A stretch of DNA of 64,000 nucleotides, from sequence record MT968995.1; one strand, 5' to 3'. Shown in pieces: positions 35,675 through 60,759 of this stretch. The stretch is from Escherichia phage vB_EcoM_WL-3. A model generated the notes under the pieces. It saw nothing but the letters and a program-made list of their open reading frames with translations. It did not search any database and was not told the origin of the DNA. Position 1 is the stretch's first letter; every line of letters begins with the position of its first letter. The position numbers and the translations under genes are program-made.

Positions 35675-36484
35675 ATGCTTAAAGAACAACTGATTGCTGA
35701 AGCGCAAAAAATTGATGCTTCCGTTGCTCTTGATAGTATTTTCGAATCAGTTAATATTTCTCCGGAAGCAAAAGAAACTTTCGGCACTGTATTCGAAGCT
35801 ACCGTCAAGCAGCACGCCGTTAAATTAGCTGAATCTCATATCGCTAAAATTGCTGAAAAAGCAGAAGAAGAAGTAGAAAAAAATAAAGAAGAAGCCGAAG
35901 AAAAAGCTGAGAAGAAAATCGCTGAGCAAGCTTCTAAATTCATCGACCATCTTGCGAAAGAATGGCTCGCTGAAAATAAATTAGCAGTTGATAAAGGCAT
36001 CAAAGCCGAACTGTTTGAATCCATGCTTGGTGGATTAAAAGAGCTCTTTGTTGAACACAACGTTGTTGTTCCAGAAGAATCAGTTGATGTTGTGGCTGAA
36101 ATGGAAGAAGAGCTGCAAGAACATAAAGAAGAATCAGCTCGTCTGTTCGAAGAACTCAATAAGCGTGACGCATATATCAATTATGTGCAGCGTGAAGTGG
36201 CATTGAGCGAAAGTACTAAAGATCTGACTGAGTCTCAAAAAGAAAAAGTCTCTGCTCTGGTCGAAGGTATGGATTATTCAGATGAATTCTCAAATAAATT
36301 GAGTGCCATCGTAGAAATGGTGAAGAAGTCTAATAAAGATGAAAGCACTATTACTGAGGGTATAAATACTCCTGATACTGAAGCAGCCGGACTAAATTTC
36401 GTCACTGAAGCTGTAGAAGATAAAGCTGCACCTGGTGCAGAAGATATTGTAAGTGTATATGCGAAAGTCGCATCTCGTTTCTAA
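35675..36484 (+). CDS. 22: gp22 prohead core scaffold protein
   Basis: 269 aa, Glu/Lys-rich helical. Confidence 0.9.
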   Translation: MLKEQLIAEAQKIDASVALDSIFESVNISPEAKETFGTVFEATVKQHAVKLAESHIAKIAEKAEEEVEKNKEEAEEKAEKKIAEQASKFIDHLAKEWLAENKLAVDKGIKAELFESMLGGLKELFVEHNVVVPEESVDVVAEMEEELQEHKEESARLFEELNKRDAYINYVQREVALSESTKDLTESQKEKVSALVEGMDYSDEFSNKLSAIVEMVKKSNKDESTITEGINTPDTEAAGLNFVTEAVEDKAAPGAEDIVSVYAKVASRF

Positions 36485-36502
36485 TTTTAAAGGTTAACAC
36501 AA

Positions 36503-38068
36503 ATGACTATCAAAACTAAAGCTGAACTTTTGAACAAATGGAAGCCATTACTGGAAGGTGAAGGTTTACCGGAAATTGCTAATAGCAAACAAGCGATTAT
36601 CGCTAAAATCTTTGAAAACCAGGAAAAAGATTTCCAGACAGCTCCAGAGTACAAAGACGAAAAAATCGCCCAGGCGTTCGGTTCTTTCTTAACAGAAGCT
36701 GAAATCGGTGGTGACCACGGTTACAATGCTACTAACATCGCTGCTGGTCAGACTTCTGGCGCAGTAACTCAGATTGGCCCAGCTGTTATGGGTATGGTAC
36801 GTCGTGCTATTCCTAACCTGATTGCTTTCGATATTTGCGGTGTTCAGCCGATGAACAGCCCGACCGGTCAGGTATTCGCACTGCGCGCAGTATATGGTAA
36901 AGACCCAATCGCTGCCGGTGCTAAAGAAGCATTCCACCCAATGTATGGTCCAGATGCAATGTTCTCTGGTCAGGGTGCTGCTAAGAAATTCGCTGCTTTG
37001 AAAGCAAGTGATACTCTTGAAGTTGGAACTATTTACACCCACTTCTTCCAGGACACTGGTACTGTGTATCTGCAAGCTACAGAAGTTAAGCAAATTGACA
37101 CTAGTGCAACTGACGCAGCTAAATTAGATGCTGAAATTAAGAAACAAATGGAAGCTGGCGTACTGGTAGAAATCGCCGAAGGTATGGCTACTTCTATCGC
37201 TGAACTTCAGGAAGGTTTCAACGGTTCTACCGATAACCCATGGAATGAAATGGGCTTCCGTATCGATAAACAAGTTATCGAAGCTAAATCTCGTCAGCTG
37301 AAAGCTGCTTACTCTATCGAATTAGCACAAGACCTCCGCGCTGTTCACGGTATGGATGCTGATGCTGAACTGTCTGGTATTCTGGCTACCGAAATCATGC
37401 TGGAAATCAACCGTGAAGTTGTTGATTGGATTAACTACTCAGCTCAGGTTGGTAAATCTGGTATGACCCTGACTCCAGGTTCTAAAGCTGGTGTATTTGA
37501 CTTCCAGGATCCGATTGATATTCGTGGTGCTCGCTGGGCGGGTGAATCCTTTAAAGCTCTGTTGTTCCAGATTGACAAAGAAGCAGTTGAAATTGCTCGT
37601 CAGACCGGTCGTGGTGAAGGTAACTTCATTATCGCTTCCCGTAACGTAGTTAACGTTCTGGCTTCAGTTGATACTGGCATTTCTTATGCTGCACAGGGTC
37701 TGGCTACCGGCTTTAACACTGATACTACCAAGTCAGTATTTGCTGGTGTTCTGGGTGGTAAATACCGTGTATATATCGACCAGTATGCTAAACAGGATTA
37801 TTTCACTGTAGGTTATAAAGGTCCGAACGAAATGGATGCTGGTATTTACTATGCTCCATATGTAGCTCTGACTCCGCTGCGTGGTTCCGATCCGAAGAAC
37901 TTCCAACCAGTAATGGGATTCAAAACTCGTTACGGTATCGGTATCAACCCATTTGCAGAATCCGCTGCTCAGGCTCCGGCTTCTCGCATCCAGAGCGGTA
38001 TGCCTTCTATTCTGAATAGCCTTGGTAAAAACGCTTACTTCCGCCGTGTATATGTTAAAGGTATCTAA
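36503..38068 (+). CDS. 23: gp23 major capsid protein
   Basis: 521 aa as in T4; protease-type cleavage context near N-terminus. Confidence 0.95.
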   Translation: MTIKTKAELLNKWKPLLEGEGLPEIANSKQAIIAKIFENQEKDFQTAPEYKDEKIAQAFGSFLTEAEIGGDHGYNATNIAAGQTSGAVTQIGPAVMGMVRRAIPNLIAFDICGVQPMNSPTGQVFALRAVYGKDPIAAGAKEAFHPMYGPDAMFSGQGAAKKFAALKASDTLEVGTIYTHFFQDTGTVYLQATEVKQIDTSATDAAKLDAEIKKQMEAGVLVEIAEGMATSIAELQEGFNGSTDNPWNEMGFRIDKQVIEAKSRQLKAAYSIELAQDLRAVHGMDADAELSGILATEIMLEINREVVDWINYSAQVGKSGMTLTPGSKAGVFDFQDPIDIRGARWAGESFKALLFQIDKEAVEIARQTGRGEGNFIIASRNVVNVLASVDTGISYAAQGLATGFNTDTTKSVFAGVLGGKYRVYIDQYAKQDYFTVGYKGPNEMDAGIYYAPYVALTPLRGSDPKNFQPVMGFKTRYGIGINPFAESAAQAPASRIQSGMPSILNSLGKNAYFRRVYVKGI

Positions 38069-53307: not shown

Positions 53308-53338
53308 TATTATAACACAATACGAGGGACTTGTAAAC
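53308..53338 (-). promoter_or_regulatory. sigma70-like (early-type) promoter for the 96-aa ORF
   Basis: Minus strand TTTACA, about 17-18 nt, TATAAT, about 30 nt upstream of ATG at 53277. Confidence 0.4.
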
Positions 53339-55395
53339 TACATCTTGAACTTTTTAGACATTCCGTTGATGTTAACCAAAGAAGCTAAGATTTGAGAAAC
53401 TTCGTTTTCCTCTTCTTTTGATTCTTCTACAAGGAATTGATTAAACCCAGCCATTGGACGAACTTCACCAGTTTCCATCAGATGATCGCCATCATATACC
53501 GATTCTTCTAATTGTTCAGAAGGAGGAACGATTGTACCTTCGATTAAATACTTGTTATAAGCAGTTTCTTTCATCATGTACGTGCTCACTTTATTAATCT
53601 TCAGCAAAATTCCACGTGGTAAAATAACTTCAGCTTCTGACGTAAATCCTGATAAATGACCCGGAACGATAACTTTGATTCGCTCAGCTCCTTTAATTAC
53701 CATACCCACGCTAGTTTCAGCATCTTCATTCGCATAAGCAGAATGACTGCCCATATGCATCAAATCTTCTGCGTCAATTGAACCTTCTCCTTCACCAGAA
53801 AATACTGCACTGGAATCATCTAGAGCCATATAGTTTTTACCATACTCACCGAAGATATTTGGTTTAAGCGATGTGGATACGAAGTTCTTAAAATAGAACA
53901 TTTTATTTTCAATATTATGACGTAAAGTTTTAAAGGTAACTTCTTGGCCACGGTAAAGCGTAGTTCCTGGAGGAAGAACTGATCCTTTGGCAAAAGCAGA
54001 ATCCATCGTCTCGATGTGTTTAATAGCTCGTTCCATATATTCTTCACGAGTAGAATCCGGTTTACCTAAAAGGAACGAGTTCATTTCAACATATGAATCT
54101 GCGCAATAATCTTCAATTACATCAGACTCAGCCCGAGTTAATCCTTTTGGGGGTACTTCAGTACTTGCATATTCATACGCTTGAGAAGCAGACTCATTAA
54201 TCAATTTATAAATGCCATTCATGACAAATTGAATAATAGCTACCTTTTCATCTGGCGTGGCTTTAGAACCTTTAACTAAATCATTGACAATTTTCTTAAT
54301 AACATCAAAGCTATTAGAAATATTAATGTCAGCAAGATCGCTTAAAATTTTATCAGTTTTATAATCAAAAAATTCTTTATTCTTTAAATATTCTTGAGAA
54401 CCTTGATGTGTTATATCGCTCTGCAGTCTGATAGACGGATCACGTAAACGTGCATGGGCCAATGCAATATGATTTCGGAAGCTTTTTAGTTCATAATCAC
54501 TAGATTTAAAACGAGAAGCACTCCTCATACCACCGATAGCTCCTTTGCCGAAGTTTGAACCAATCTGAATAACGCCAGAGTTCATTGGTCCTTCTGCTTT
54601 ATATACCGGAACTTTAGATTCAAACTCTTGATATTTCTTAGCAGCGAAACTATCGCCCTGAAGTGAAGCATCGACAGTAGAGTATTGAGCTTGTGCTGCT
54701 AATCGACGACTAATTTTAGTTTTCTGAATAACAGCTTGATCCGTGCGCTTATCATTTTCTAAAGCAATAGAAGCGGCAACAGCAACAGCTTTAGGAACAG
54801 CATTACCTGTTTTAACGTCTACATAAACATCACCAACCTTTGATTCAACTTTTGTGAATAACTCAGTTGAAATAGGAGGTACACCTGGAATGTCTTCTAA
54901 ATTGGCATTTTTACGGTAAACCATAATATATGCATACTTTTTATCGTAATCCCAGATTTCCTTTAAAAGAACATATCGACCTGCTCCTTTAGTACGTACT
55001 AAACGGTCAGCAATAACTTGAATTTGTCGAGCTGCGCCATTTGTTTTACTCTTTAGTACGCGGAACAGGCATGCGTCAATTTTATACTGTTTCATTGTTT
55101 GAAGAGCAGTATCAAAAACCGCATTAATAACACCAATTGGATTTCCACCCAAGTTTTTAAGTTTAACTAATGATAGTTTCTCATTGACACCTATCATTAC
55201 GATATGCATCATTTTATCGCCTGGCTTAACGTTTTTATTTGTATCACCGCCAGAGGTGTATGTGCAAAATCTAAATCCAGGAAGCACGCTTTCTTCACCG
55301 GCTTGAATAGCAAAAATTTGAGGTATTTTATGCTTAGGATTTAAGTTAACAACCGGCGCCGAAGCGCCGTCAAATAATTCTGTAATAAGTTCCAT
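53338..55395 (-). CDS. Alt-family mono-ADP-ribosyltransferase, paralog A
   Basis: 685 aa; C-terminal ART triad YRG / FVSTSL / SEAEVILPRG; N-terminus MELITELFD shared with adjacent paralog. Confidence 0.8.
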   Translation of the reverse strand: MELITELFDGASAPVVNLNPKHKIPQIFAIQAGEESVLPGFRFCTYTSGGDTNKNVKPGDKMMHIVMIGVNEKLSLVKLKNLGGNPIGVINAVFDTALQTMKQYKIDACLFRVLKSKTNGAARQIQVIADRLVRTKGAGRYVLLKEIWDYDKKYAYIMVYRKNANLEDIPGVPPISTELFTKVESKVGDVYVDVKTGNAVPKAVAVAASIALENDKRTDQAVIQKTKISRRLAAQAQYSTVDASLQGDSFAAKKYQEFESKVPVYKAEGPMNSGVIQIGSNFGKGAIGGMRSASRFKSSDYELKSFRNHIALAHARLRDPSIRLQSDITHQGSQEYLKNKEFFDYKTDKILSDLADINISNSFDVIKKIVNDLVKGSKATPDEKVAIIQFVMNGIYKLINESASQAYEYASTEVPPKGLTRAESDVIEDYCADSYVEMNSFLLGKPDSTREEYMERAIKHIETMDSAFAKGSVLPPGTTLYRGQEVTFKTLRHNIENKMFYFKNFVSTSLKPNIFGEYGKNYMALDDSSAVFSGEGEGSIDAEDLMHMGSHSAYANEDAETSVGMVIKGAERIKVIVPGHLSGFTSEAEVILPRGILLKINKVSTYMMKETAYNKYLIEGTIVPPSEQLEESVYDGDHLMETGEVRPMAGFNQFLVEESKEEENEVSQILASLVNINGMSKKFKM

Positions 55396-55398
55396 GAT

Positions 55399-57495
55399 TT
55401 ATCCTTGAACGAACTTGTAAGGCATGTTTGTAATATCTATGCAAGACGCAATAATTCCGAGAGATGATTCTGCTTTCTGTTTAACATTTGATGAAACAAA
55501 TGATGCAAAGTCAACTCTGTCTTCTATTTCAATATCACCTGTCATTGCAACTACTTCACCAGTTTCCATTAAATGGTCTCCATCATAAATTACTGATTCG
55601 GTGAGTTCTTCTGTAGTCATAACTTCAGATTGAATGAGTTTTGTATTATTAGATGTTGTTCCGTCATTATTAGAAGCATCAGTTATTTTATTAACTTTGA
55701 CCATCAATCCGCGCGGTAGAATAACTTCAGCTTCTGTTGCTATTCCGAGACTTCCTGGATATACAACATTAACTTTATGAGCTCCATCAATTGCCCATCC
55801 TATTTGAACTTTAACGTATTCAGGATTTTCTTTATACGCTCTTATTTCGTTTGGATTAATAGTTATTCCTTCTTCATTTTTATCAACTGTCAATTCATTA
55901 CGAGCTTCTGGTTCTAAAAGACCAATACCAGCATGTGTAATTCCAAAACGTCCAAAAATGATAGGAGTTAAAGAAGTAGATACAAAATTTCTGAAATAGA
56001 ACACTTTATTTTTAACTAGTGCTTCGTATATAGGAGCAGTCATACTTTGAGCACGATAAACTGTAATGCCTTCTGGTATACGGTCACCATTTTCAAAAGC
56101 TGAATCTAAGTTATTTATAGCAGATTCAATTTCTTTTTCACTCATTACATCATATCGTTCTGGATTGTAACGACCCAAAAGAAGATTATTGATGTCAGTA
56201 TATCCTGAACCACAATACTCTCTAATGCCGCGCTTTTGTGATGGAGTATATTTAGAACCATCACGGGCAATAGTAATATCAATCATTGGACCTGCACCAA
56301 TTCCAGAAAAACTATAAATCATTCGTTTGAGGAATTTAGTTTTTGCTGCGTTCCAGGAATTTTTAGTTATTTCTTCCCAGACTTCATCTGGCTGTCCTTT
56401 ACGGGTTTTATTATGTTTATCAAGCCAAGTATCTTTATATTCTTCAAAGAATTTATTAACAGCTGCTGCGTATTTCTCTAAACATTTTATTGAAGTAGTT
56501 GGTTCATTTTTAATCGCATTAAGAATTACATCTTTAATTTTTTCAGAAACTTCATTAACCTCACTTTTTGAAAAGAATTTATAGTCATAGTGAAGTTCAT
56601 CTGCGGTTCCTTCGGCAATGATTTTTGCTGCCTTAGTTTTAGAAGCTAATGAATTAATTCCAAGCTTCATTTCTTCTGCTTCGGGAATTAAAGGAGCTGT
56701 AGCAGGTTTATTGAAATTAGCTGCAGTAGATTCATACTTCTGGAATAATTCGCTTTCAAATCTAGAAGATTCTAATGATTGACTTTGCGCAATTGCTCTA
56801 CGGGAAATTTTAACTTTAACAATAACAGCTTGGTCAGAACGTTTATCATTTTCTTGTGCAATAGATGCTGCAATTGCCTCATTTTTAGTTACTTGAGCTC
56901 CAGTATCTTTATTGATATAAACATCGCCGACTTTCGATTCAACTTTAGTAAAGAGCTCGGTACTAATTTCCGGAACTCCTGGAATGTCTTCTAGTGATAC
57001 ATTTTTGCGATGTATAAGAATATATGCATACTTTTTATCGTAATCCCAGAGTTCCTTAAGAAGGACGTATCTGCCACCTGAACGACTACGAATAAGTCTA
57101 TCAGCAATAACTTGAATTTGTCGAGCTTGACCAGCAGTTTTAGACTTAAGAATACGGAGCATACAGGCATCAATTTTATACTGACGCATCGTCTGCATTG
57201 CAACAGTAAAAACTGAATTGATATAATTAATTGGGCTTGGACCGAGACCTTTTAATTTAGCAATTGAACCTTTAGCAGTTAATGTAAAAGGAACAATATG
57301 CATCATTTTATCGCCCATTTTTAAATCGCGATTAGTATCACCTCCAGATGTATAGGTACATAAACGAAAGCCTGGTTGTTCAATTGCGTCATCGACATGA
57401 ACTGAAAAAATTTGTGGTATTTTCTTCTTTGGATTTAAGTTTGTAATCGGAAGAGTAGTATCTTCGTCAAATAATTCTGTAATGAGTTCCATCAT
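55399..57495 (-). CDS. Alt-family mono-ADP-ribosyltransferase, paralog B
   Basis: 698 aa; C-terminal YRAQ / FVSTSLTP / TEAEVILPRG; N-terminal ~230 aa closely parallel paralog A. Confidence 0.8.
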   Translation of the reverse strand: MMELITELFDEDTTLPITNLNPKKKIPQIFSVHVDDAIEQPGFRLCTYTSGGDTNRDLKMGDKMMHIVPFTLTAKGSIAKLKGLGPSPINYINSVFTVAMQTMRQYKIDACMLRILKSKTAGQARQIQVIADRLIRSRSGGRYVLLKELWDYDKKYAYILIHRKNVSLEDIPGVPEISTELFTKVESKVGDVYINKDTGAQVTKNEAIAASIAQENDKRSDQAVIVKVKISRRAIAQSQSLESSRFESELFQKYESTAANFNKPATAPLIPEAEEMKLGINSLASKTKAAKIIAEGTADELHYDYKFFSKSEVNEVSEKIKDVILNAIKNEPTTSIKCLEKYAAAVNKFFEEYKDTWLDKHNKTRKGQPDEVWEEITKNSWNAAKTKFLKRMIYSFSGIGAGPMIDITIARDGSKYTPSQKRGIREYCGSGYTDINNLLLGRYNPERYDVMSEKEIESAINNLDSAFENGDRIPEGITVYRAQSMTAPIYEALVKNKVFYFRNFVSTSLTPIIFGRFGITHAGIGLLEPEARNELTVDKNEEGITINPNEIRAYKENPEYVKVQIGWAIDGAHKVNVVYPGSLGIATEAEVILPRGLMVKVNKITDASNNDGTTSNNTKLIQSEVMTTEELTESVIYDGDHLMETGEVVAMTGDIEIEDRVDFASFVSSNVKQKAESSLGIIASCIDITNMPYKFVQG

Positions 57496-57544: not shown

Positions 57545-57733
57545 TTAATAATCTAATGGTAAGAGAGTACGGTATATTTCAAACTTTGGCCCTTTTTCAT
57601 AGGCATCAAATGTTTCTGTAAATTTATTATAAGCATATGCATCTACAAATTCGAGAACGATTTGTGATACAGAAGTAGAAACATCTCCACCTTCTTTTTG
57701 AGCCACGACAATTGTTTCTAAGTAAGCTTTCAT
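57545..57733 (-). CDS. hypothetical protein between gene 30 and alt
   Basis: 62-aa ORF; start overlaps gene 30 stop (ATGA). Confidence 0.5.
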   Translation of the reverse strand: MKAYLETIVVAQKEGGDVSTSVSQIVLEFVDAYAYNKFTETFDAYEKGPKFEIYRTLLPLDY

Positions 57734-59193
57734 AGACCAGTTACCTCATGAAAATCACCAAATACATCCTCGAATGTATTAGCTTTTGTTTTATCTTCAC
57801 GCAAACGAATCGCAATTGGAAGAAATAATTTAACGTAATCAGTGCGACCATCAGATTTTAACCAACCGTTGCATTCGCACTCTAGAATTTTTCCAATATA
57901 ATAATTTTGGTTTTCCATAATGCGAGTACGGTCAAGTTCATGTGATTTTACACCGGCTTTATCTTTTAAGCCTGAACCTGCATTTACTTTAATTTTTCCA
58001 CACTCTGATTCAAGAATAAATCCACCCGCTTTAGTAGGGTCTTTACGGTGAGGATAAATTCCTACAATTTTTAAATCAACATCAATTACTTCTTTAAATT
58101 TATAGAGATTTTTTGAACGAGCATTTTCCCACAATCCATCGGTATTTTTGAGAATAATACCTTCAAGACCCTGGTCAATATACTTTTTATAAATTACCTT
58201 AGCTTCATCTAGGTTATTTACTACCTGGTTTTCAATTAAAATTACTTTATCATATCCTGATGTCATTTGTTCTAGTTTAGAAAAACGTACATCATATTTT
58301 AAACGAAACGCCGGAAGACCGTATATTTCTACCAACGGGACATAATCCCAGACCTGAAACTTCATGCATTTGGCTTCTTTTTCGGAAATGGTTCCTTTTA
58401 AGGATTTATTGGCGATTCCATTAGAAGCAGTACGAGATTCCGCTACTTCGGCGAATTCTTTAGCTTTACTAATTTCAGGATAAGCATCAAAAAGAAAATC
58501 TAGGCCTTCTGGTTCCTTTTTAACTTGCTCATGGTATACCAATTCACCATCAATTAACACACCTTCTGGATGAATCTGGCGGGCTTCAGCAGTCATTTTG
58601 ATTAACTCTTCCTTAAGAAGATCTAATCCTAGATATTCATTACCAGCTCGTGATAAAAGACGAACATCATCTAATTCATCACCTCGGACTTCAGCAAAAC
58701 ACCGAGCTCCATCTGCTTTTAACTGCGCAAAAGCTGGAAACTTGATATTCTTACTAATGCCTTTTTCATCATAAGAACTTGCTAGCATTTGAGGTTGTTC
58801 AGGAATTAAACCTGGCCAAACTTTGTTTGCAATAGATACTGAAGCACCGCATTCAAGGTCTCGCATCATAACTCGACGCAAAACTTCAACATCATCCTTT
58901 TTACCATCAGTGATATATCCAGTTAATTCCTCAATTGCAGCATTTCCAGTCAATTTCCGAGTAGCTAACGTGAATTCAATGAAGTCAAGCATATCGGTAA
59001 TAGTCAGCATTCCAAAACTCTGGGTAGCAATACCAGGTTTAGGCCATTTCTTGATATAATACTGTAACCCACGAGAATAAGTCAGACGATATACTCGTTT
59101 AAGCAATTCATTATTTTTATTCTTTTCAAGAATTGCTTGCTTCTGTTTAGTTGATCCAATAGATGCTATTTCATTCAGAATTTTAAGAATCAT
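57730..59193 (-). CDS. 30: ATP-dependent DNA ligase
   Basis: 487 aa as in T4; adenylation motif KADGAR. Confidence 0.95.
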   Translation of the reverse strand: MILKILNEIASIGSTKQKQAILEKNKNNELLKRVYRLTYSRGLQYYIKKWPKPGIATQSFGMLTITDMLDFIEFTLATRKLTGNAAIEELTGYITDGKKDDVEVLRRVMMRDLECGASVSIANKVWPGLIPEQPQMLASSYDEKGISKNIKFPAFAQLKADGARCFAEVRGDELDDVRLLSRAGNEYLGLDLLKEELIKMTAEARQIHPEGVLIDGELVYHEQVKKEPEGLDFLFDAYPEISKAKEFAEVAESRTASNGIANKSLKGTISEKEAKCMKFQVWDYVPLVEIYGLPAFRLKYDVRFSKLEQMTSGYDKVILIENQVVNNLDEAKVIYKKYIDQGLEGIILKNTDGLWENARSKNLYKFKEVIDVDLKIVGIYPHRKDPTKAGGFILESECGKIKVNAGSGLKDKAGVKSHELDRTRIMENQNYYIGKILECECNGWLKSDGRTDYVKLFLPIAIRLREDKTKANTFEDVFGDFHEVTGL

Positions 59194-59459
59194 TGTTCAT
59201 CCTTCAGAGTTTGATTTACATCTCTATTATAAATCAATTCATCATTAAGCTCAGGCAAAGACTTATGATATGTCGTTCTAACTTTATTTCCTTGCATCCA
59301 GTGCTTGACGTAAATGAAACCTTGCTCTACACATTTTTTAAAAATTCGTTCATCCTTTTGAGCACGGAACTCTGGATTGCATCTAAAAAATTGATTTACG
59401 TGACCATAATCACGTGTAGTATTACCTTCATTTTCATAAATAGTATGAACAACAAACAT
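59190..59459 (-). CDS. hypothetical protein (position of T4 30.1)
   Basis: 89-aa ORF with overlapping stop/start. Confidence 0.5.
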   Translation of the reverse strand: MFVVHTIYENEGNTTRDYGHVNQFFRCNPEFRAQKDERIFKKCVEQGFIYVKHWMQGNKVRTTYHKSLPELNDELIYNRDVNQTLKDEQ

Positions 59460-60298
59460 TAGAATGCTCCTTGAAAAATATTATCACCACTAGTAGGTCT
59501 ATTATACAAATACTCTATGCCACCAGGTTTAATATAGTTCCATGTCTGAAACGGATGTGTCTGATATGGATGATATGGATGATTATAAGGATTTAATCCA
59601 GGCGTTCTCCAGGTAGTGTTCCAAGGAAAAGAATCGTTTTTAACCATCTTCTCAATTAAATCTTTTATAGCTTTTTCACTATCAAAACTTTCTTTATTTT
59701 CCTTCGGCGAAAAAAGCTTATTTTCTACATCATTCCATGTATAAACTCGCTGCGCAGTTTTTGGAATATTGTCACGCTCTCCTCGAGCCATCCAATAAAC
59801 TGGAACATTTAATATTTCACTCGCATGATCGCAGTGATGAGCGAGATCGTCAATATAACAAATTACGTTATATTTCTCTTTTGCCTTTTTGAACAGCTCT
59901 TCTTTTGAAGAATCATGACCACACATCATTACTTCTGAGAAGGCACCAGGAAAAAGAGCGTTCAAATTAAATTGACGATTCAACAGAGCGTCAATAGAAT
60001 CACCCAATGCTGTAACAGCTACAAAATTATAATCTTCTTTTAATTTGTTAATTACACACAGGGCATCTTTATACGGAGACAAGTAACGAATAAAATCTGA
60101 ACGATTGTATTTTTCAATTAACTTGACGCCAAGTTCTTCGTCACAATTAAAGAGTTTACCTGGAGAAATAAATTTCTCATCTTGGATCATTTTTAAAATA
60201 TGTTCTAATGGAAGATTATATTTCTGAGCAAAATAAGGAAGGCCTGATTGCCAGCTTAAACATACTCCATCAATATCAGTCAAAATAGTTGGCTTCAT
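59459..60298 (-). CDS. HAD-superfamily phosphatase-like protein (position of T4 30.2)
   Basis: 279 aa; N-terminal TDIDGV matches HAD motif I DxDG(T/V). Confidence 0.6.
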   Translation of the reverse strand: MKPTILTDIDGVCLSWQSGLPYFAQKYNLPLEHILKMIQDEKFISPGKLFNCDEELGVKLIEKYNRSDFIRYLSPYKDALCVINKLKEDYNFVAVTALGDSIDALLNRQFNLNALFPGAFSEVMMCGHDSSKEELFKKAKEKYNVICYIDDLAHHCDHASEILNVPVYWMARGERDNIPKTAQRVYTWNDVENKLFSPKENKESFDSEKAIKDLIEKMVKNDSFPWNTTWRTPGLNPYNHPYHPYQTHPFQTWNYIKPGGIEYLYNRPTSGDNIFQGAF

Positions 60299-60759
60299 AG
60301 AGAGTCTCTTAATAGGTTTAACACATCAATAAATTCAGCTTCGGTTAGTATTGTATCATCTTTTGTTAGACCACTAGCCATGCTGTGCTTCAAAACTTTT
60401 CCTTTCGAGGCTTGTAATGCATTGCGAAATCCCTTGTTTTGGATCGCTGCTTCAAAATATGCATTTGTGTATAATTCTTTCCATGCTTCGGAATATCTTG
60501 AAAACGGAGTTCCAAGCCAGAACAACGTGCCACGGTCCTGAGCTCTTGCATAAGACCTTCCAGCTTGTTGGGCGGCAAGCCCGGATAACCCAAATATACG
60601 ACGTTGGTGTTCAACATTTTTCACCTTACACCCTTGGAGGAATCCTTCGAGACCTCCAAATTGAATACCATCCATAACGAAAGGCCATTGGGCGAAATTA
60701 CTTAATGCACATGATGGCCATTTAAAATTGCTTCTTATCTCTAGCTCAGACATTTTCAA
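60295..60759 (-). CDS. NADAR/YbiA-like domain protein (position of T4 30.3)
   Basis: 154 aa; LSNFAQWPFVMDGIQFGGLEGFLQGCK resembles NADAR family signature. Confidence 0.5.
   Translation of the reverse strand: MKMSELEIRSNFKWPSCALSNFAQWPFVMDGIQFGGLEGFLQGCKVKNVEHQRRIFGLSGLAAQQAGRSYARAQDRGTLFWLGTPFSRYSEAWKELYTNAYFEAAIQNKGFRNALQASKGKVLKHSMASGLTKDDTILTEAEFIDVLNLLRDSL

What the first reader, a model, noticed from the sequence alone, without database searches (positions are those of the whole stretch)
59459..60759. NADAR-like and HAD-phosphatase-like ORFs next to DNA ligase and the ART genes
The 154-aa ORF carries an LSNF...F..DG..F...E....Q..K pattern reminiscent of the NADAR/YbiA family, and the adjacent 279-aa ORF starts with the HAD motif DIDGV. 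Together with ligase 30 and the two ARTs this forms a cluster of NAD/ADP-ribose-related functions. A NADAR-type hydrolase beside ARTs could reverse or process ADP-ribosylation; this is hypothesis only.
Basis: inference. Interest (0 to 1): 0.5.

Follow-up and report, generated by a model that had tools for sequence, protein, structure and literature searches.

The report
T4 AdfN NADAR plus HAD phosphatase
The two genes are the T4-phage genes 30.3 and 30.2: the first is AdfN, an already characterised enzyme that strips a host defence's ADP-ribose marks off phage DNA, and the second is an uncharacterised small-molecule phosphatase most like nucleotide phosphatases.

Summary
The window comes from a T4-like (Tequatrovirus) phage. 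Both ORFs are real.

**30.3 (NADAR):**
- It is the orthologue of T4 gp30.3, 96% identical.
- Its true start is the ATG at 60753, giving 152 aa, not the TTG at 60759.
- gp30.3 is the published AdfN, a phage-clade NADAR that removes ADP-ribose from guanine in DNA and defeats the host DarTG1 defence.
- The catalytic E36, K43 and H123 and the C-terminal helix are intact here.

**30.2 (HAD):**
- The 279-aa ORF is T4 gp30.2, 97% identical. I found no published function.
- No Pfam or NCBIfam model hits it.
- All four HAD motifs are conserved: D8xD10, T96, K132, D150-D151.
- A broad family profile best matches 5'(3')-deoxyribonucleotidase-like nucleotidases.
- It is most likely a Mg-dependent nucleotide monophosphatase. 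The substrate is unknown.

**The "NAD/ADP-ribose cluster" idea is weak:**
- The ligase matches the ATP-dependent type.
- AdfN counters the host enzyme DarT1; nothing links it to the phage's Alt enzymes.
- Across Straboviridae, 30.2 stays beside the ligase, while 30.3 is often elsewhere.

The parts
60295..60753 (-). Gene 30.3 = adfN. A 152-aa phage-clade NADAR that acts as a DNA guanine ADP-ribosylglycohydrolase. Catalytic E36, K43 and H123 and the C-terminal helix (residues 138-151) are intact.
   Evidence: Pfam PF08010 E=2.7e-68. 96% identical to T4 gp30.3 over 152/152 aa. Invariant E36, K43 and H123 in 63 homologues. AF2 pLDDT 92; Foldseek hits only 2b3w, 8bau and 8bat. Function of the T4 orthologue: PMC11825919, PMC11125620, PMC12945103.
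59459..60298 (-). Gene 30.2, 279 aa. Residues 1-~195 form a HAD phosphatase domain with a helical C1 cap (about residues 12-90). A helix at 207-220 is followed by a disordered Pro/Asn/Tyr/His-rich tail (228-279) that contains the short motif GIEYLYNRPT.
60390..60617 (-). ORF 30.3': a 75-aa out-of-frame ORF inside 30.3, annotated in T4 as an internal translation product. It is conserved as an open frame here.
   Evidence: Listed. T4 annotation of 30.3' at the same relative position. Classed as early RNA in T4 omics; no protein class is given for it. Not examined further.
59190..59459 (-). Gene 30.1 (DUF3045, 89 aa), translationally coupled between 30.2 and the ligase gene.
   Evidence: Pfam PF11243 E=4.7e-62. 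95.5% identical to T4 gp30.1. Overlaps TAATG and ATGA.
57730..59193 (-). Gene 30, ATP-dependent DNA ligase (487 aa). It is the conserved downstream neighbour of 30.2.
   Evidence: Pfam PF01068 (ATP-dependent DNA ligase domain) E=2.9e-32. 98.6% identical to T4 gp30. 30.2-ligase adjacency in 8 of 9 Straboviridae loci.
55399..57495 (-). alt: a 698-aa ADP-ribosyltransferase. By T4's annotation it is carried in the virion and ADP-ribosylates host RNA polymerase. This is context only, not part of a demonstrated module with 30.2/30.3.
   Evidence: Pfam PF03496 E=3e-37. 70% identical to T4 Alt. T4 annotation.
53338..55395 (-). Second full-length alt paralogue (685 aa). Context only.
   Evidence: Pfam PF03496 E=2.5e-19. 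Its N-terminus is 94-98% identical to the T4 Alt.-1/Alt.-2 fragments.

Best explanation
The region holds two independent early genes of a T4-like phage, inherited in the ancestral gene order upstream of the DNA ligase gene.

**Gene 30.3 (60295-60753, minus strand)** is AdfN, a minimal phage-clade NADAR.
- When the host DarTG1 toxin-antitoxin system is triggered, DarT1 ADP-ribosylates guanines in phage DNA and blocks replication.
- AdfN binds the ADP-ribose and hydrolyses the N-glycosidic bond to guanine, which restores replicable DNA.
- In a solved eukaryotic NADAR (PnNADAR), the residues equivalent to E36 and K43 contact the ADP-ribose. H123 takes the place of the YbiA-family glutamate in the last strand.
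- This is shown experimentally for the T4 protein, which is 96% identical. It is inferred for this phage.

**Gene 30.2 (59459-60298, minus strand)** is a Mg2+-dependent HAD phosphatase.
- By the standard HAD mechanism (established knowledge, not tested here), D8 would be the nucleophile that forms an aspartyl-phosphate intermediate and D10 the general acid/base.
- T96 and K132 would bind the phosphate. D150/D151 would hold the metal.
- A helical C1 cap closes over the site, which points to a small-molecule substrate.
- From its nearest sequence and structure relatives, the substrate is most probably a (deoxy)nucleoside monophosphate. Its role would then lie in nucleotide-pool management or in removing an unwanted nucleotide during early/middle infection.
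- The fold and catalytic motifs are shown here. The substrate and biological role are inferred.
For: **AdfN**
- PF08010 E=2.7e-68.
- 96% identity to T4 gp30.3, with no change at E36, K43 or H123 and no truncation.
- These residues are invariant in 63 homologues.
- A family profile hits YbiA at E=0.0044.
- The model (pLDDT 92) matches only NADAR structures: 2b3w (E=3.4e-5, TM 0.67), 8bau and 8bat.
- Literature on the T4 protein: in-vitro removal of G-ADPr but not T- or C-ADPr, necessity and sufficiency against DarTG1 in T-even infection, and E36A/K43A and C-terminal truncation defects (PMC11825919; PMC11125620; PMC12945103; histidine in phage NADARs, PMC11543638).

**gp30.2**
- D8, D10, K132 and R108 are invariant in 127 sequences at 20-50% identity. 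W16, N111 and D151 are >=90% conserved.
- T96 and D150 are >=90% conserved in the closer set.
- AF2 pLDDT is >90 over residues 1-190.
- Foldseek gives 94 PDB hits at E<=1e-3; those listed are HAD-fold proteins. The lowest rmsd and highest target TM are for cdN/mdN and 3bwv.
- The broad profile against PDB ranks 3bwv (putative 5'(3')-deoxyribonucleotidase) first, full length, at E=1.7e-6. SDT1/SSM1 pyrimidine nucleotidase, mdN, XMP phosphatase and cdN are among the next hits.
- 15 of 64 homologues give sub-threshold NT5C hits, and one distant member passes the NT5C gathering score.
- T4 omics: early RNA, with protein detected in the 'middle' class, the same class as ligase and 30.1.

**Independence of the two genes**
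- 30.2 is <=0.5 kb upstream of the ligase in 8 of 9 Straboviridae loci.
- 30.3 is next to or near 30.2 in only 4 of 9.
- A Krischvirus has 30.3 abutting the ligase with no 30.2 in 8.4 kb.
Against: - No enzyme assay exists for gp30.2, and I found no paper on it.
- This sequence matches no Pfam or NCBIfam HAD/NT5C model.
- In T4-type phages 30.3 and 30.2 overlap by ATGA, and both genes are present in essentially the same phage genera. A functional link is therefore not excluded.
- AdfN(T4) is reported to need an unidentified T-even factor for full activity.
- For this particular phage, AdfN activity is inferred from 96% identity, not measured.
Confidence: 0.72

Rival explanations
1. gp30.2 and AdfN form a two-enzyme anti-DarTG (or broader anti-ADP-ribosylation) module. 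gp30.2 would be the unidentified T-even factor that AdfN(T4) needs for full activity in cells. It could process the released ADP-ribose or a phosphorylated ADP-ribose or NAD-pathway nucleotide, or recruit AdfN through its C-terminal tail.
For: - The two genes overlap by ATGA and sit in one run of translationally coupled genes.
- Both are transcribed early in T4.
- The genes occur in nearly the same phage genera: 1452 vs 1510 records.
- AdfN(T4) works in vitro and during RB69 or T4 infection. It fails to neutralise DarT1 in uninfected E. coli and only weakly rescues T5 and Bas25. The authors attribute this to a possible extra T-even protein.
- A Vibrio phage homologue of 30.2 lies between two NAMPT genes.
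- The yeast nucleotidase SDT1/SSM1 is among the profile hits.
Against: - The adjacency is not conserved. 30.3 is absent from the +/-5 kb around 30.2 in Winklervirus, Jiaodavirus, Muldoonvirus, Tulanevirus and Biquartavirus loci. It lies elsewhere in a Jiaodavirus and a Vibrio phage.
- A Krischvirus has 30.3 abutting the ligase with no 30.2 nearby.
- NADAR hydrolysis needs no phosphatase step, and AdfN alone is active in vitro.
- Any of some 200 other T-even genes fits the 'extra factor' observation equally well.
- In T4 the two proteins fall in different protein-timing classes, middle vs late.
Confidence: 0.1
2. gp30.2 is a polynucleotide 3'-phosphatase (end-healing enzyme). It would prepare 3'-phosphate nicks for the adjacent DNA ligase, as the HAD phosphatase domains of T4 Pnkp and eukaryotic PNKP do.
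For: - 30.2 sits immediately upstream of the ligase gene in 8 of 9 Straboviridae loci from different genera.
- It has the same RNA and protein timing class as the ligase in T4.
- There is a weak PHROG hit to polynucleotide kinase, E=0.002.
- One metagenomic homologue is fused to a 'DNA polymerase' PHROG domain.
Against: - The model has a roughly 75-residue helical C1 cap over the active site. By established HAD structure-function rules, capped members take small substrates. I recall the end-processing phosphatases as lacking such a cap (background knowledge, not checked here).
- The Pnkp match covers only 125-129 core residues and ranks 43rd-45th.
- Sequence profiles prefer mononucleotidases.
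- T4-type phages already encode PseT/Pnkp for end healing (seen).
Confidence: 0.1
3. gp30.2 is a counter-defence nucleotidase. It would remove a nucleotide that a host immune system uses as precursor or signal, by analogy with T5 Dmp, whose dNMP phosphatase activity depletes dAMP and blocks the Kongming system.
For: - Its relatives are nucleotidase-like.
- It is an early gene next to a proven counter-defence gene.
- A precedent exists: a phage dNMP phosphatase acts as an anti-defence factor (bioRxiv 10.1101/2024.12.20.629578).
- The family is found in phage records or matches a phage protein family (PHROG 420) in every member I checked. It has about 1290 cluster representatives.
Against: - gp30.2 is not a close relative of T5 Dmp (hhalign probability 3.8%).
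- No phenotype is reported.
- Conserved linkage to ligase and dCMP-deaminase-type neighbourhoods fits ordinary nucleotide or replication metabolism equally well.
- This is a sub-case of the best explanation rather than a true alternative.
Confidence: 0.15

Closest known systems
T4 gp30.3 = AdfN (anti-DarT factor NADAR), Pfam PF08010 Phage_30_3
   Same: 96% identical over the full 152 aa. It has the same position between 30.4 and 30.2. The catalytic E36, K43 and H123 and the C-terminal helix are the same.
   Different: There are six substitutions (K11R, H49Q, T82V, E89P, N111D, M125I relative to T4), none at a known catalytic position. Activity was not measured for this allele.
DarG1 / BC4488-family NADAR antitoxins and E. 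coli YbiA (PF08719)
   Same: Same YbiA/NADAR fold and the same LSNF...E....Q..K active-site motif. The same chemistry, hydrolysis of guanine-N2-ADP-ribose, is shown for the T4 protein in the cited papers.
   Different: - It is an orphan, with no cognate toxin.
- It consists of the core domain only.
- It has histidine where YbiA has glutamate and DarG1 has aspartate in the last strand.
- It does not reach PF08719 at E<=1.
- The T4 protein cannot replace DarG1 in uninfected cells.
5'(3')-deoxyribonucleotidases of the HAD superfamily (NT5C family PF06941: human cdN/mdN; S. epidermidis 3bwv)
   Same: - Capped C1 HAD fold.
- DxDGV motif I followed by an aromatic residue and SGL at the start of the cap (the gp30.2-family consensus WqSgL aligned with cdN FESGL).
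- Similar spacing of the T, K and DD motifs.
- Best profile and structural neighbours.
   Different: - Only 15-21% identity.
- This sequence does not reach the Pfam NT5C model.
- It has family-specific invariant R108 and N111.
- It has an added ~80-residue disordered tail.
- The substrate is unknown.
T5 Dmp (deoxynucleoside-5'-monophosphatase, anti-Kongming factor)
   Same: A phage-encoded early phosphatase. The cited preprint reports that it hydrolyses dNMPs and that this activity counters Kongming immunity. It is a possible functional analogue.
   Different: No significant profile similarity apart from a short match around the K...DD motifs (hhalign probability 3.8%). The genomic context differs.
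T4 Pnkp (PseT) 3'-phosphatase domain
   Different: The match covers only 125-129 core residues, whereas gp30.2 adds a helical cap of about 75 residues. I recall Pnkp as capless and acting on polynucleotide ends (background knowledge). It is a separate gene in these phages.

Membership tests
NADAR superfamily | YbiA/NADAR alpha+beta fold | tested here: met
   The AF2 model (pLDDT 92.3, pTM 0.88) gives Foldseek PDB matches at probability >=0.97 only to YbiA 2b3w (E=3.4e-5, TMq 0.67), PnNADAR 8bau and G. lovleyi NADAR 8bat. Every other hit has probability <=0.08.
NADAR superfamily | Conserved catalytic glutamate and lysine in the LSNF...E....Q..K motif | tested here: met
   E36 and K43 are present and invariant in 63 homologues. 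In PnNADAR the equivalent residues contact ADP-ribose, and E36A and K43A impair AdfN(T4).
NADAR superfamily | Match to the Pfam NADAR model PF08719 | tested here: not met
   No PF08719 hit at E<=1; the protein matches the separate phage model PF08010 instead. One homologue (P0174) carries both precomputed Pfam hits. A family profile hits YbiA at E=0.0044.
Phage NADAR clade / AdfN (gp30.3) | Histidine in the last beta-strand in place of the YbiA Glu or DarG1 Asp | tested here: met
   H123 lies in strand 120-123 of the model and is invariant in the alignment. This defining feature is stated in PMC11125620 and PMC11543638.
Phage NADAR clade / AdfN (gp30.3) | Orthology to T4 30.3, with the full-length C-terminal helix (not the RB69-type frameshift truncation) | tested here: met
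   96% identity over 152/152 aa, ending ...LLRDSL as in T4. Helix 138-151 is present in the model. Same gene order as T4.
Phage NADAR clade / AdfN (gp30.3) | Removes ADP-ribose from guanine in DNA and confers resistance to DarTG1 | not testable with these tools
   Shown for the T4 protein only.
HAD (haloacid dehalogenase-like) phosphatase superfamily | Rossmannoid HAD core fold | tested here: met
HAD (haloacid dehalogenase-like) phosphatase superfamily | Motif I, DxDx(T/V), at the end of strand 1 | tested here: met
   D8-I-D10-G-V12 follows strand 4-7. D8 and D10 are invariant and V12 is >=90% conserved in 127 sequences.
HAD (haloacid dehalogenase-like) phosphatase superfamily | Motifs II (S/T), III (K/R) and IV (DD or equivalent) | tested here: met
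   T96 lies at the end of strand 91-96 and is >=90% conserved in A1. K132 is invariant. D150-D151 lie at the end of strand 145-150, with D151 >=90% conserved in the broad set.
HAD (haloacid dehalogenase-like) phosphatase superfamily | Match to curated HAD profile models (Pfam, NCBIfam) | tested here: not met
   This sequence gives no Pfam hit at E<=1 and no NCBIfam hit at E<=10. Among 64 homologues, 16 give sub-threshold PF00702 hits, 10 give PF13419 and 15 give PF06941.
NT5C-type 5'(3')-deoxyribonucleotidases (PF06941) | Sequence-profile membership | tested here: inconclusive
NT5C-type 5'(3')-deoxyribonucleotidases (PF06941) | Mg-dependent hydrolysis of 5' or 3' deoxynucleoside monophosphates | not testable with these tools
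   No assay is available, and no paper on gp30.2 function was found.

The most novel reading that the evidence does not exclude
gp30.2 is the unidentified T-even-specific helper that AdfN(T4) needs to work inside cells. More broadly, it could be a counter-defence phosphatase acting on an ADP-ribose- or NAD-derived or other immune nucleotide. In that case 30.3-30.2 would be a two-enzyme anti-defence cassette rather than two unrelated neighbours.
Probability: 0.1. Interest if true: 0.65.

Novelty: already known. Interest (0 to 1): 0.25.

Why it matters
T-even phages carry an orphan antitoxin-like NADAR (AdfN) that erases DarT1's guanine ADP-ribosylation. This phage has an intact, presumably active allele, so it is predicted to resist DarTG1.

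The useful residue is gp30.2. It is expressed in T4 and conserved across Straboviridae: tblastn finds it in 1452 phage records, and the wider family has about 1290 cluster representatives. It has no assigned function and no hit in curated models. This work assigns it a capped HAD phosphatase fold with complete catalytic motifs and nucleotidase-like relatives. It also shows that its stable genomic partner is the DNA ligase gene, not adfN. That gives a concrete, cheap set of experiments. It also gives a named candidate, among many, for the open question of why AdfN(T4) works only during T-even infection.

Tried and rejected
- **Curated models on gp30.2.** Single-sequence Pfam (E<=1) and NCBIfam (E<=10) scans gave nothing. 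Single-sequence phmmer against PDB gave only noise.
- **Literature on gp30.2.** Searches for 'gp30.2', for 30.1/30.2/30.3 with phage T4, and for deoxyribonucleotidase with T4-like terms found no functional study.
- **T5 Dmp as a homologue.** Rejected: hhalign probability 3.8%, and Dmp itself has no Pfam hit.
- **Fusion proteins in the wider family as 'Rosetta stone' evidence.** One HAD domain is fused to a 'DNA polymerase' PHROG domain. Its contig context was uninformative, and the other long members had no recognisable extra domain.
- **Promoter/terminator scan.** Counts were no higher than in shuffled sequence: 24 vs 21.8 and 5 vs 3.8. I draw no operon boundaries from it.
- **Ligase as part of an NAD cluster.** Considered and rejected, because it matches the ATP-dependent ligase domain.
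- **Kongming preprint.** It contains none of the T4/T-even terms I searched for, so nothing can be said from it about T4 and Kongming.
- **Not done.**
  - Scanning a whole Krischvirus genome to prove that 30.2 is absent. Only the 8.4-kb locus was checked.
Full report
**What the region is**

The window is from a T4-like phage.
- The 2-kb stretch around the finding is 99.3% identical to Escherichia phage EP01 and matches 685 phage records, mostly Tequatrovirus.
- Aligned with the annotated T4 genome (AF158101), the minus-strand gene order is alt(x2) - alt.1 - 30 (ligase) - 30.1 - 30.2 - 30.3 - 30.4 - 30.5 ... 31 - rIII.
- They are 96% and 97% identical to the T4 proteins.
- Genes 30.4, 30.3, 30.2, 30.1 and 30 overlap stop-to-start: ATGTCTGA, ATGA, TAATG, ATGA.
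- A consensus promoter/terminator scan found no more sites than in shuffled sequence, so I define no transcription unit from it.
- In T4, both genes are classed as early RNAs and both proteins are detected. 30.2 falls in the 'middle' protein class together with ligase and 30.1. 30.3 falls in the 'late' protein class (supplements of PMC9697503).

**Checking the observation**

- Coordinates, lengths and the quoted motifs are correct.
- One correction: 60759 is a TTG picked by the mechanical ORF rule. T4 annotates a 152-aa product from the ATG at the position equivalent to 60753. With that start the published catalytic residues fall at E36 and K43.
- The ORFs are not chance ORFs. PF08010 scores E=2.7e-68 for 30.3, PHROG 420 scores E=2.8e-92 for 30.2, and there are hundreds of homologues.

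**Gene 30.3 is AdfN, a known NADAR**

*Sequence and structure*
It aligns with E. coli YbiA at E=0.9 with the single sequence and E=0.0044 with a 63-sequence profile.
- The AlphaFold model (pLDDT 92, pTM 0.88) has meaningful PDB matches to exactly three structures, all NADARs: YbiA 2b3w, Phytophthora NADAR 8bau and Geobacter lovleyi NADAR 8bat.
- E36, K43 and H123 are invariant across the 63 homologues.
- H123 lies in the last strand. That is the published signature of the phage NADAR clade: histidine where YbiA has Glu and DarG1 has Asp.

*Published function of the T4 protein*
- Johannesman et al. (PMC11825919) renamed T4 30.3 as adfN.
- It is necessary and sufficient for resistance of T-even phages to the DarTG1 defence.
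- It does not bind DarT1. The purified protein removes ADP-ribose from DarT1-modified DNA.
- E36A, K43A and a C-terminal truncation (as occurs naturally in RB69) all impair it.
- Cihlova et al. and a 2026 follow-up show that the T4 enzyme removes guanine-ADPr but not thymine- or cytosine-ADPr.
- The allele in this window is full length and carries six substitutions, none at these positions. I infer it is active; this is not measured.
- Pfam PF08719 itself is not matched. That is a split between Pfam models, not evidence against NADAR membership.

**Gene 30.2 is a capped HAD phosphatase, most like nucleotidases**

*What failed*
- No curated model hits this protein.
- I found no paper on its function.

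*Conserved catalytic motifs*
- An alignment of 64 homologues and a broader one of 127 representatives at 20-50% identity show all four HAD motifs.
- D8 and D10 (motif I, DIDGV) and K132 (motif III) are invariant.
- T96 (motif II) and D150/D151 (motif IV) are >=90% conserved: T96 and D150 in the 64-sequence alignment, D151 in both.
- R108 (invariant), N111 and W16 (both >=90%) are family-specific additions.

*Predicted structure*
- The AlphaFold model is confident for residues 1-190 (pLDDT >90).
- It is a Rossmannoid HAD core with a helical insertion right after motif I (about residues 12-90), that is, a C1 cap.
- Foldseek gives 94 PDB hits at E<=1e-3; those listed are HAD-fold proteins. The lowest rmsd and highest target TM-scores belong to the cytosolic and mitochondrial 5'(3')-deoxyribonucleotidases and the S. 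epidermidis deoxyribonucleotidase-like protein 3bwv.

*Sequence profiles*
- The 64-sequence profile's best PDB hit is cdN 2jao at E=0.063. In that alignment the gp30.2-family consensus DvDGvlvkWqSgL pairs with cdN MDGVLADFESGL.
- The 127-sequence profile's best hit is 3bwv over its full length at E=1.7e-6. SDT1/SSM1 pyrimidine nucleotidase, mdN, an XMP phosphatase and cdN are among the next hits.
- 15 of 64 homologues give sub-threshold NT5C hits, and one distant member passes the NT5C gathering score.

*The wider family*
- The full-library HMM search finds 1290 cluster representatives at E<=1e-3. Most are 190-220 aa, that is, the HAD domain alone. The members tested all fall in PHROG 420.
- The C-terminal ~80 residues of the T4-type protein are predicted disordered and vary between lineages. 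Subsets share short motifs, such as GIEYLxxQPT.

*Interpretation*
- By the standard HAD mechanism (established knowledge), D8 forms the aspartyl-phosphate, D10 is the acid/base, T96 and K132 bind phosphate, and D150/D151 bind Mg2+.
- A C1 cap indicates a small substrate.
- I therefore infer a nucleotide monophosphatase. The substrate and physiological role remain unknown.

**Is this a functional NAD/ADP-ribose cluster?**

I tested the idea in three ways.

1. *The ligase.* It matches the ATP-dependent ligase domain PF01068, so it is not an NAD enzyme.
2. *The two Alt proteins.* They do carry ART domains. However, AdfN's demonstrated substrate is guanine-ADPr made by the host toxin DarT1. Nothing links it to Alt's protein targets.
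3. *Gene order in related phages.* I fetched loci from other T4-related phages and mapped the window proteins onto them.
   - 30.2 lies <=0.5 kb upstream of the ligase in T4, Ac42 (Twarogvirinae), Aeromonas phage 31, Kosakonia Kc304, Klebsiella LilPanda, Cronobacter JC03, Serratia Muldoon and Aeromonas AhMtk13a. In Aeh1 it lies 1.5 kb upstream.
   - 30.3 is next to or near 30.2 only in T4, Ac42, JC03 and Aeh1.
   - 30.3 is absent from the +/-5 kb around 30.2 in the five other loci.
   - In a Jiaodavirus, 30.3 sits in an unrelated neighbourhood.
   - In a large Vibrio phage, 30.3 sits beside the gp46/47-like nuclease genes.
   - In a Krischvirus, 30.3 abuts the ligase with no 30.2 in the 8.4-kb locus.

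Both genes are widespread in the same phage genera, at 1452 and 1510 records, as expected for two near-core genes. The stable partner of 30.2 is therefore the ligase, and the 30.3-30.2 adjacency is separable. This argues for inherited synteny rather than an obligate module. It does not exclude a functional link in T-even phages.

**Rivals kept open**

- *gp30.2 as the unidentified T-even factor.* AdfN(T4) appears to need such a factor in vivo. The ATGA overlap and co-distribution fit this. The non-conserved adjacency, AdfN's stand-alone in-vitro activity and the large number of equally eligible T-even genes speak against it. I give it about 0.1.
- *gp30.2 as a counter-defence nucleotidase like T5 Dmp.* This is a special case of the best explanation. 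Dmp is not a close relative.

**Novelty and score**

- The NADAR half is already known and characterised in T4 at 96% identity.
- The HAD half is an uncharacterised orthologue of a T4 gene. Some depositors already label it 'phosphatase', 'HAD-superfamily hydrolase' or '5'(3')-deoxyribonucleotidase'.
- What this analysis adds:
  - the corrected start codon;
  - an explicit motif and fold demonstration for gp30.2;
  - its nucleotidase-like affinity;
  - the synteny result that ties it to the ligase rather than to adfN.
- Interest is low to moderate.

Noticed in passing
window 53338-55395 (-) and 55399-57495 (-): The phage carries two full-length Alt-type ADP-ribosyltransferase paralogues in tandem. 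The N-terminus of the 685-aa copy is 94-98% identical to T4's short Alt.-1 and Alt.-2 ORFs. T4 therefore seems to hold the decayed remnant of the second alt gene that is intact here. Ac42 and the two Aeromonas phage loci examined also have duplicated alt genes.
   Followed up: partly
window 60390-60617 (-): T4's annotated out-of-frame internal ORF 30.3' (75 aa, inside adfN) is conserved as an open frame in this phage. T4 omics data class it as an early RNA and give no protein class for it.
   Followed up: no
window 59459-59700 (-), residues ~200-279 of gp30.2: The C-terminal tail of gp30.2 is predicted disordered and rich in Pro/Asn/Tyr/His. It contains a short motif, GIEYLxxQPT, shared by a subset of homologues. 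Other lineages carry different tail motifs (…LRAYY; …YxLLNKVxANDS) or no tail at all. It could be a lineage-specific docking peptide.
   Followed up: partly
protein database hits P0108, P0113-P0117, P0157, P0204: Many gp30.3/AdfN homologues in public data are truncated (83-126 aa) or carry Pfam hits to other phage families as well (PF11097, PF06919, PF06019, PF26911). This suggests recurrent disruption or rearrangement of adfN, as with the known RB69 frameshift.
   Followed up: no
L004 (Vibrio phage D484) 4950-5576: A distant gp30.2-like gene lies between two genes annotated as nicotinamide phosphoribosyltransferase, on the opposite strand from both. That record has a second 30.2-like match elsewhere.
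   Followed up: no
L017 6001-7776 (marine metagenome contig, protein P0252): A 591-aa protein joins an N-terminal domain matching a 'DNA polymerase' PHROG (E=1.7e-34) to a C-terminal gp30.2-like HAD domain. A family-A DNA polymerase gene lies 3.4 kb upstream.
   Followed up: partly
L002 (Acinetobacter phage Ac42) 568-1281: A gene annotated as MutT/NUDIX ADP-ribose pyrophosphatase lies about 3.3 kb upstream of 30.3-30.2-30 in Ac42, with two alt paralogues just downstream on the opposite strand.
   Followed up: no
window 36001-38000: The G+C content peaks at 0.438 against about 0.35 elsewhere. The peak coincides with a 521-aa ORF (36503-38068, + strand). I did not identify it. Its size and position suggest the major capsid gene 23 (from memory).
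   Followed up: no
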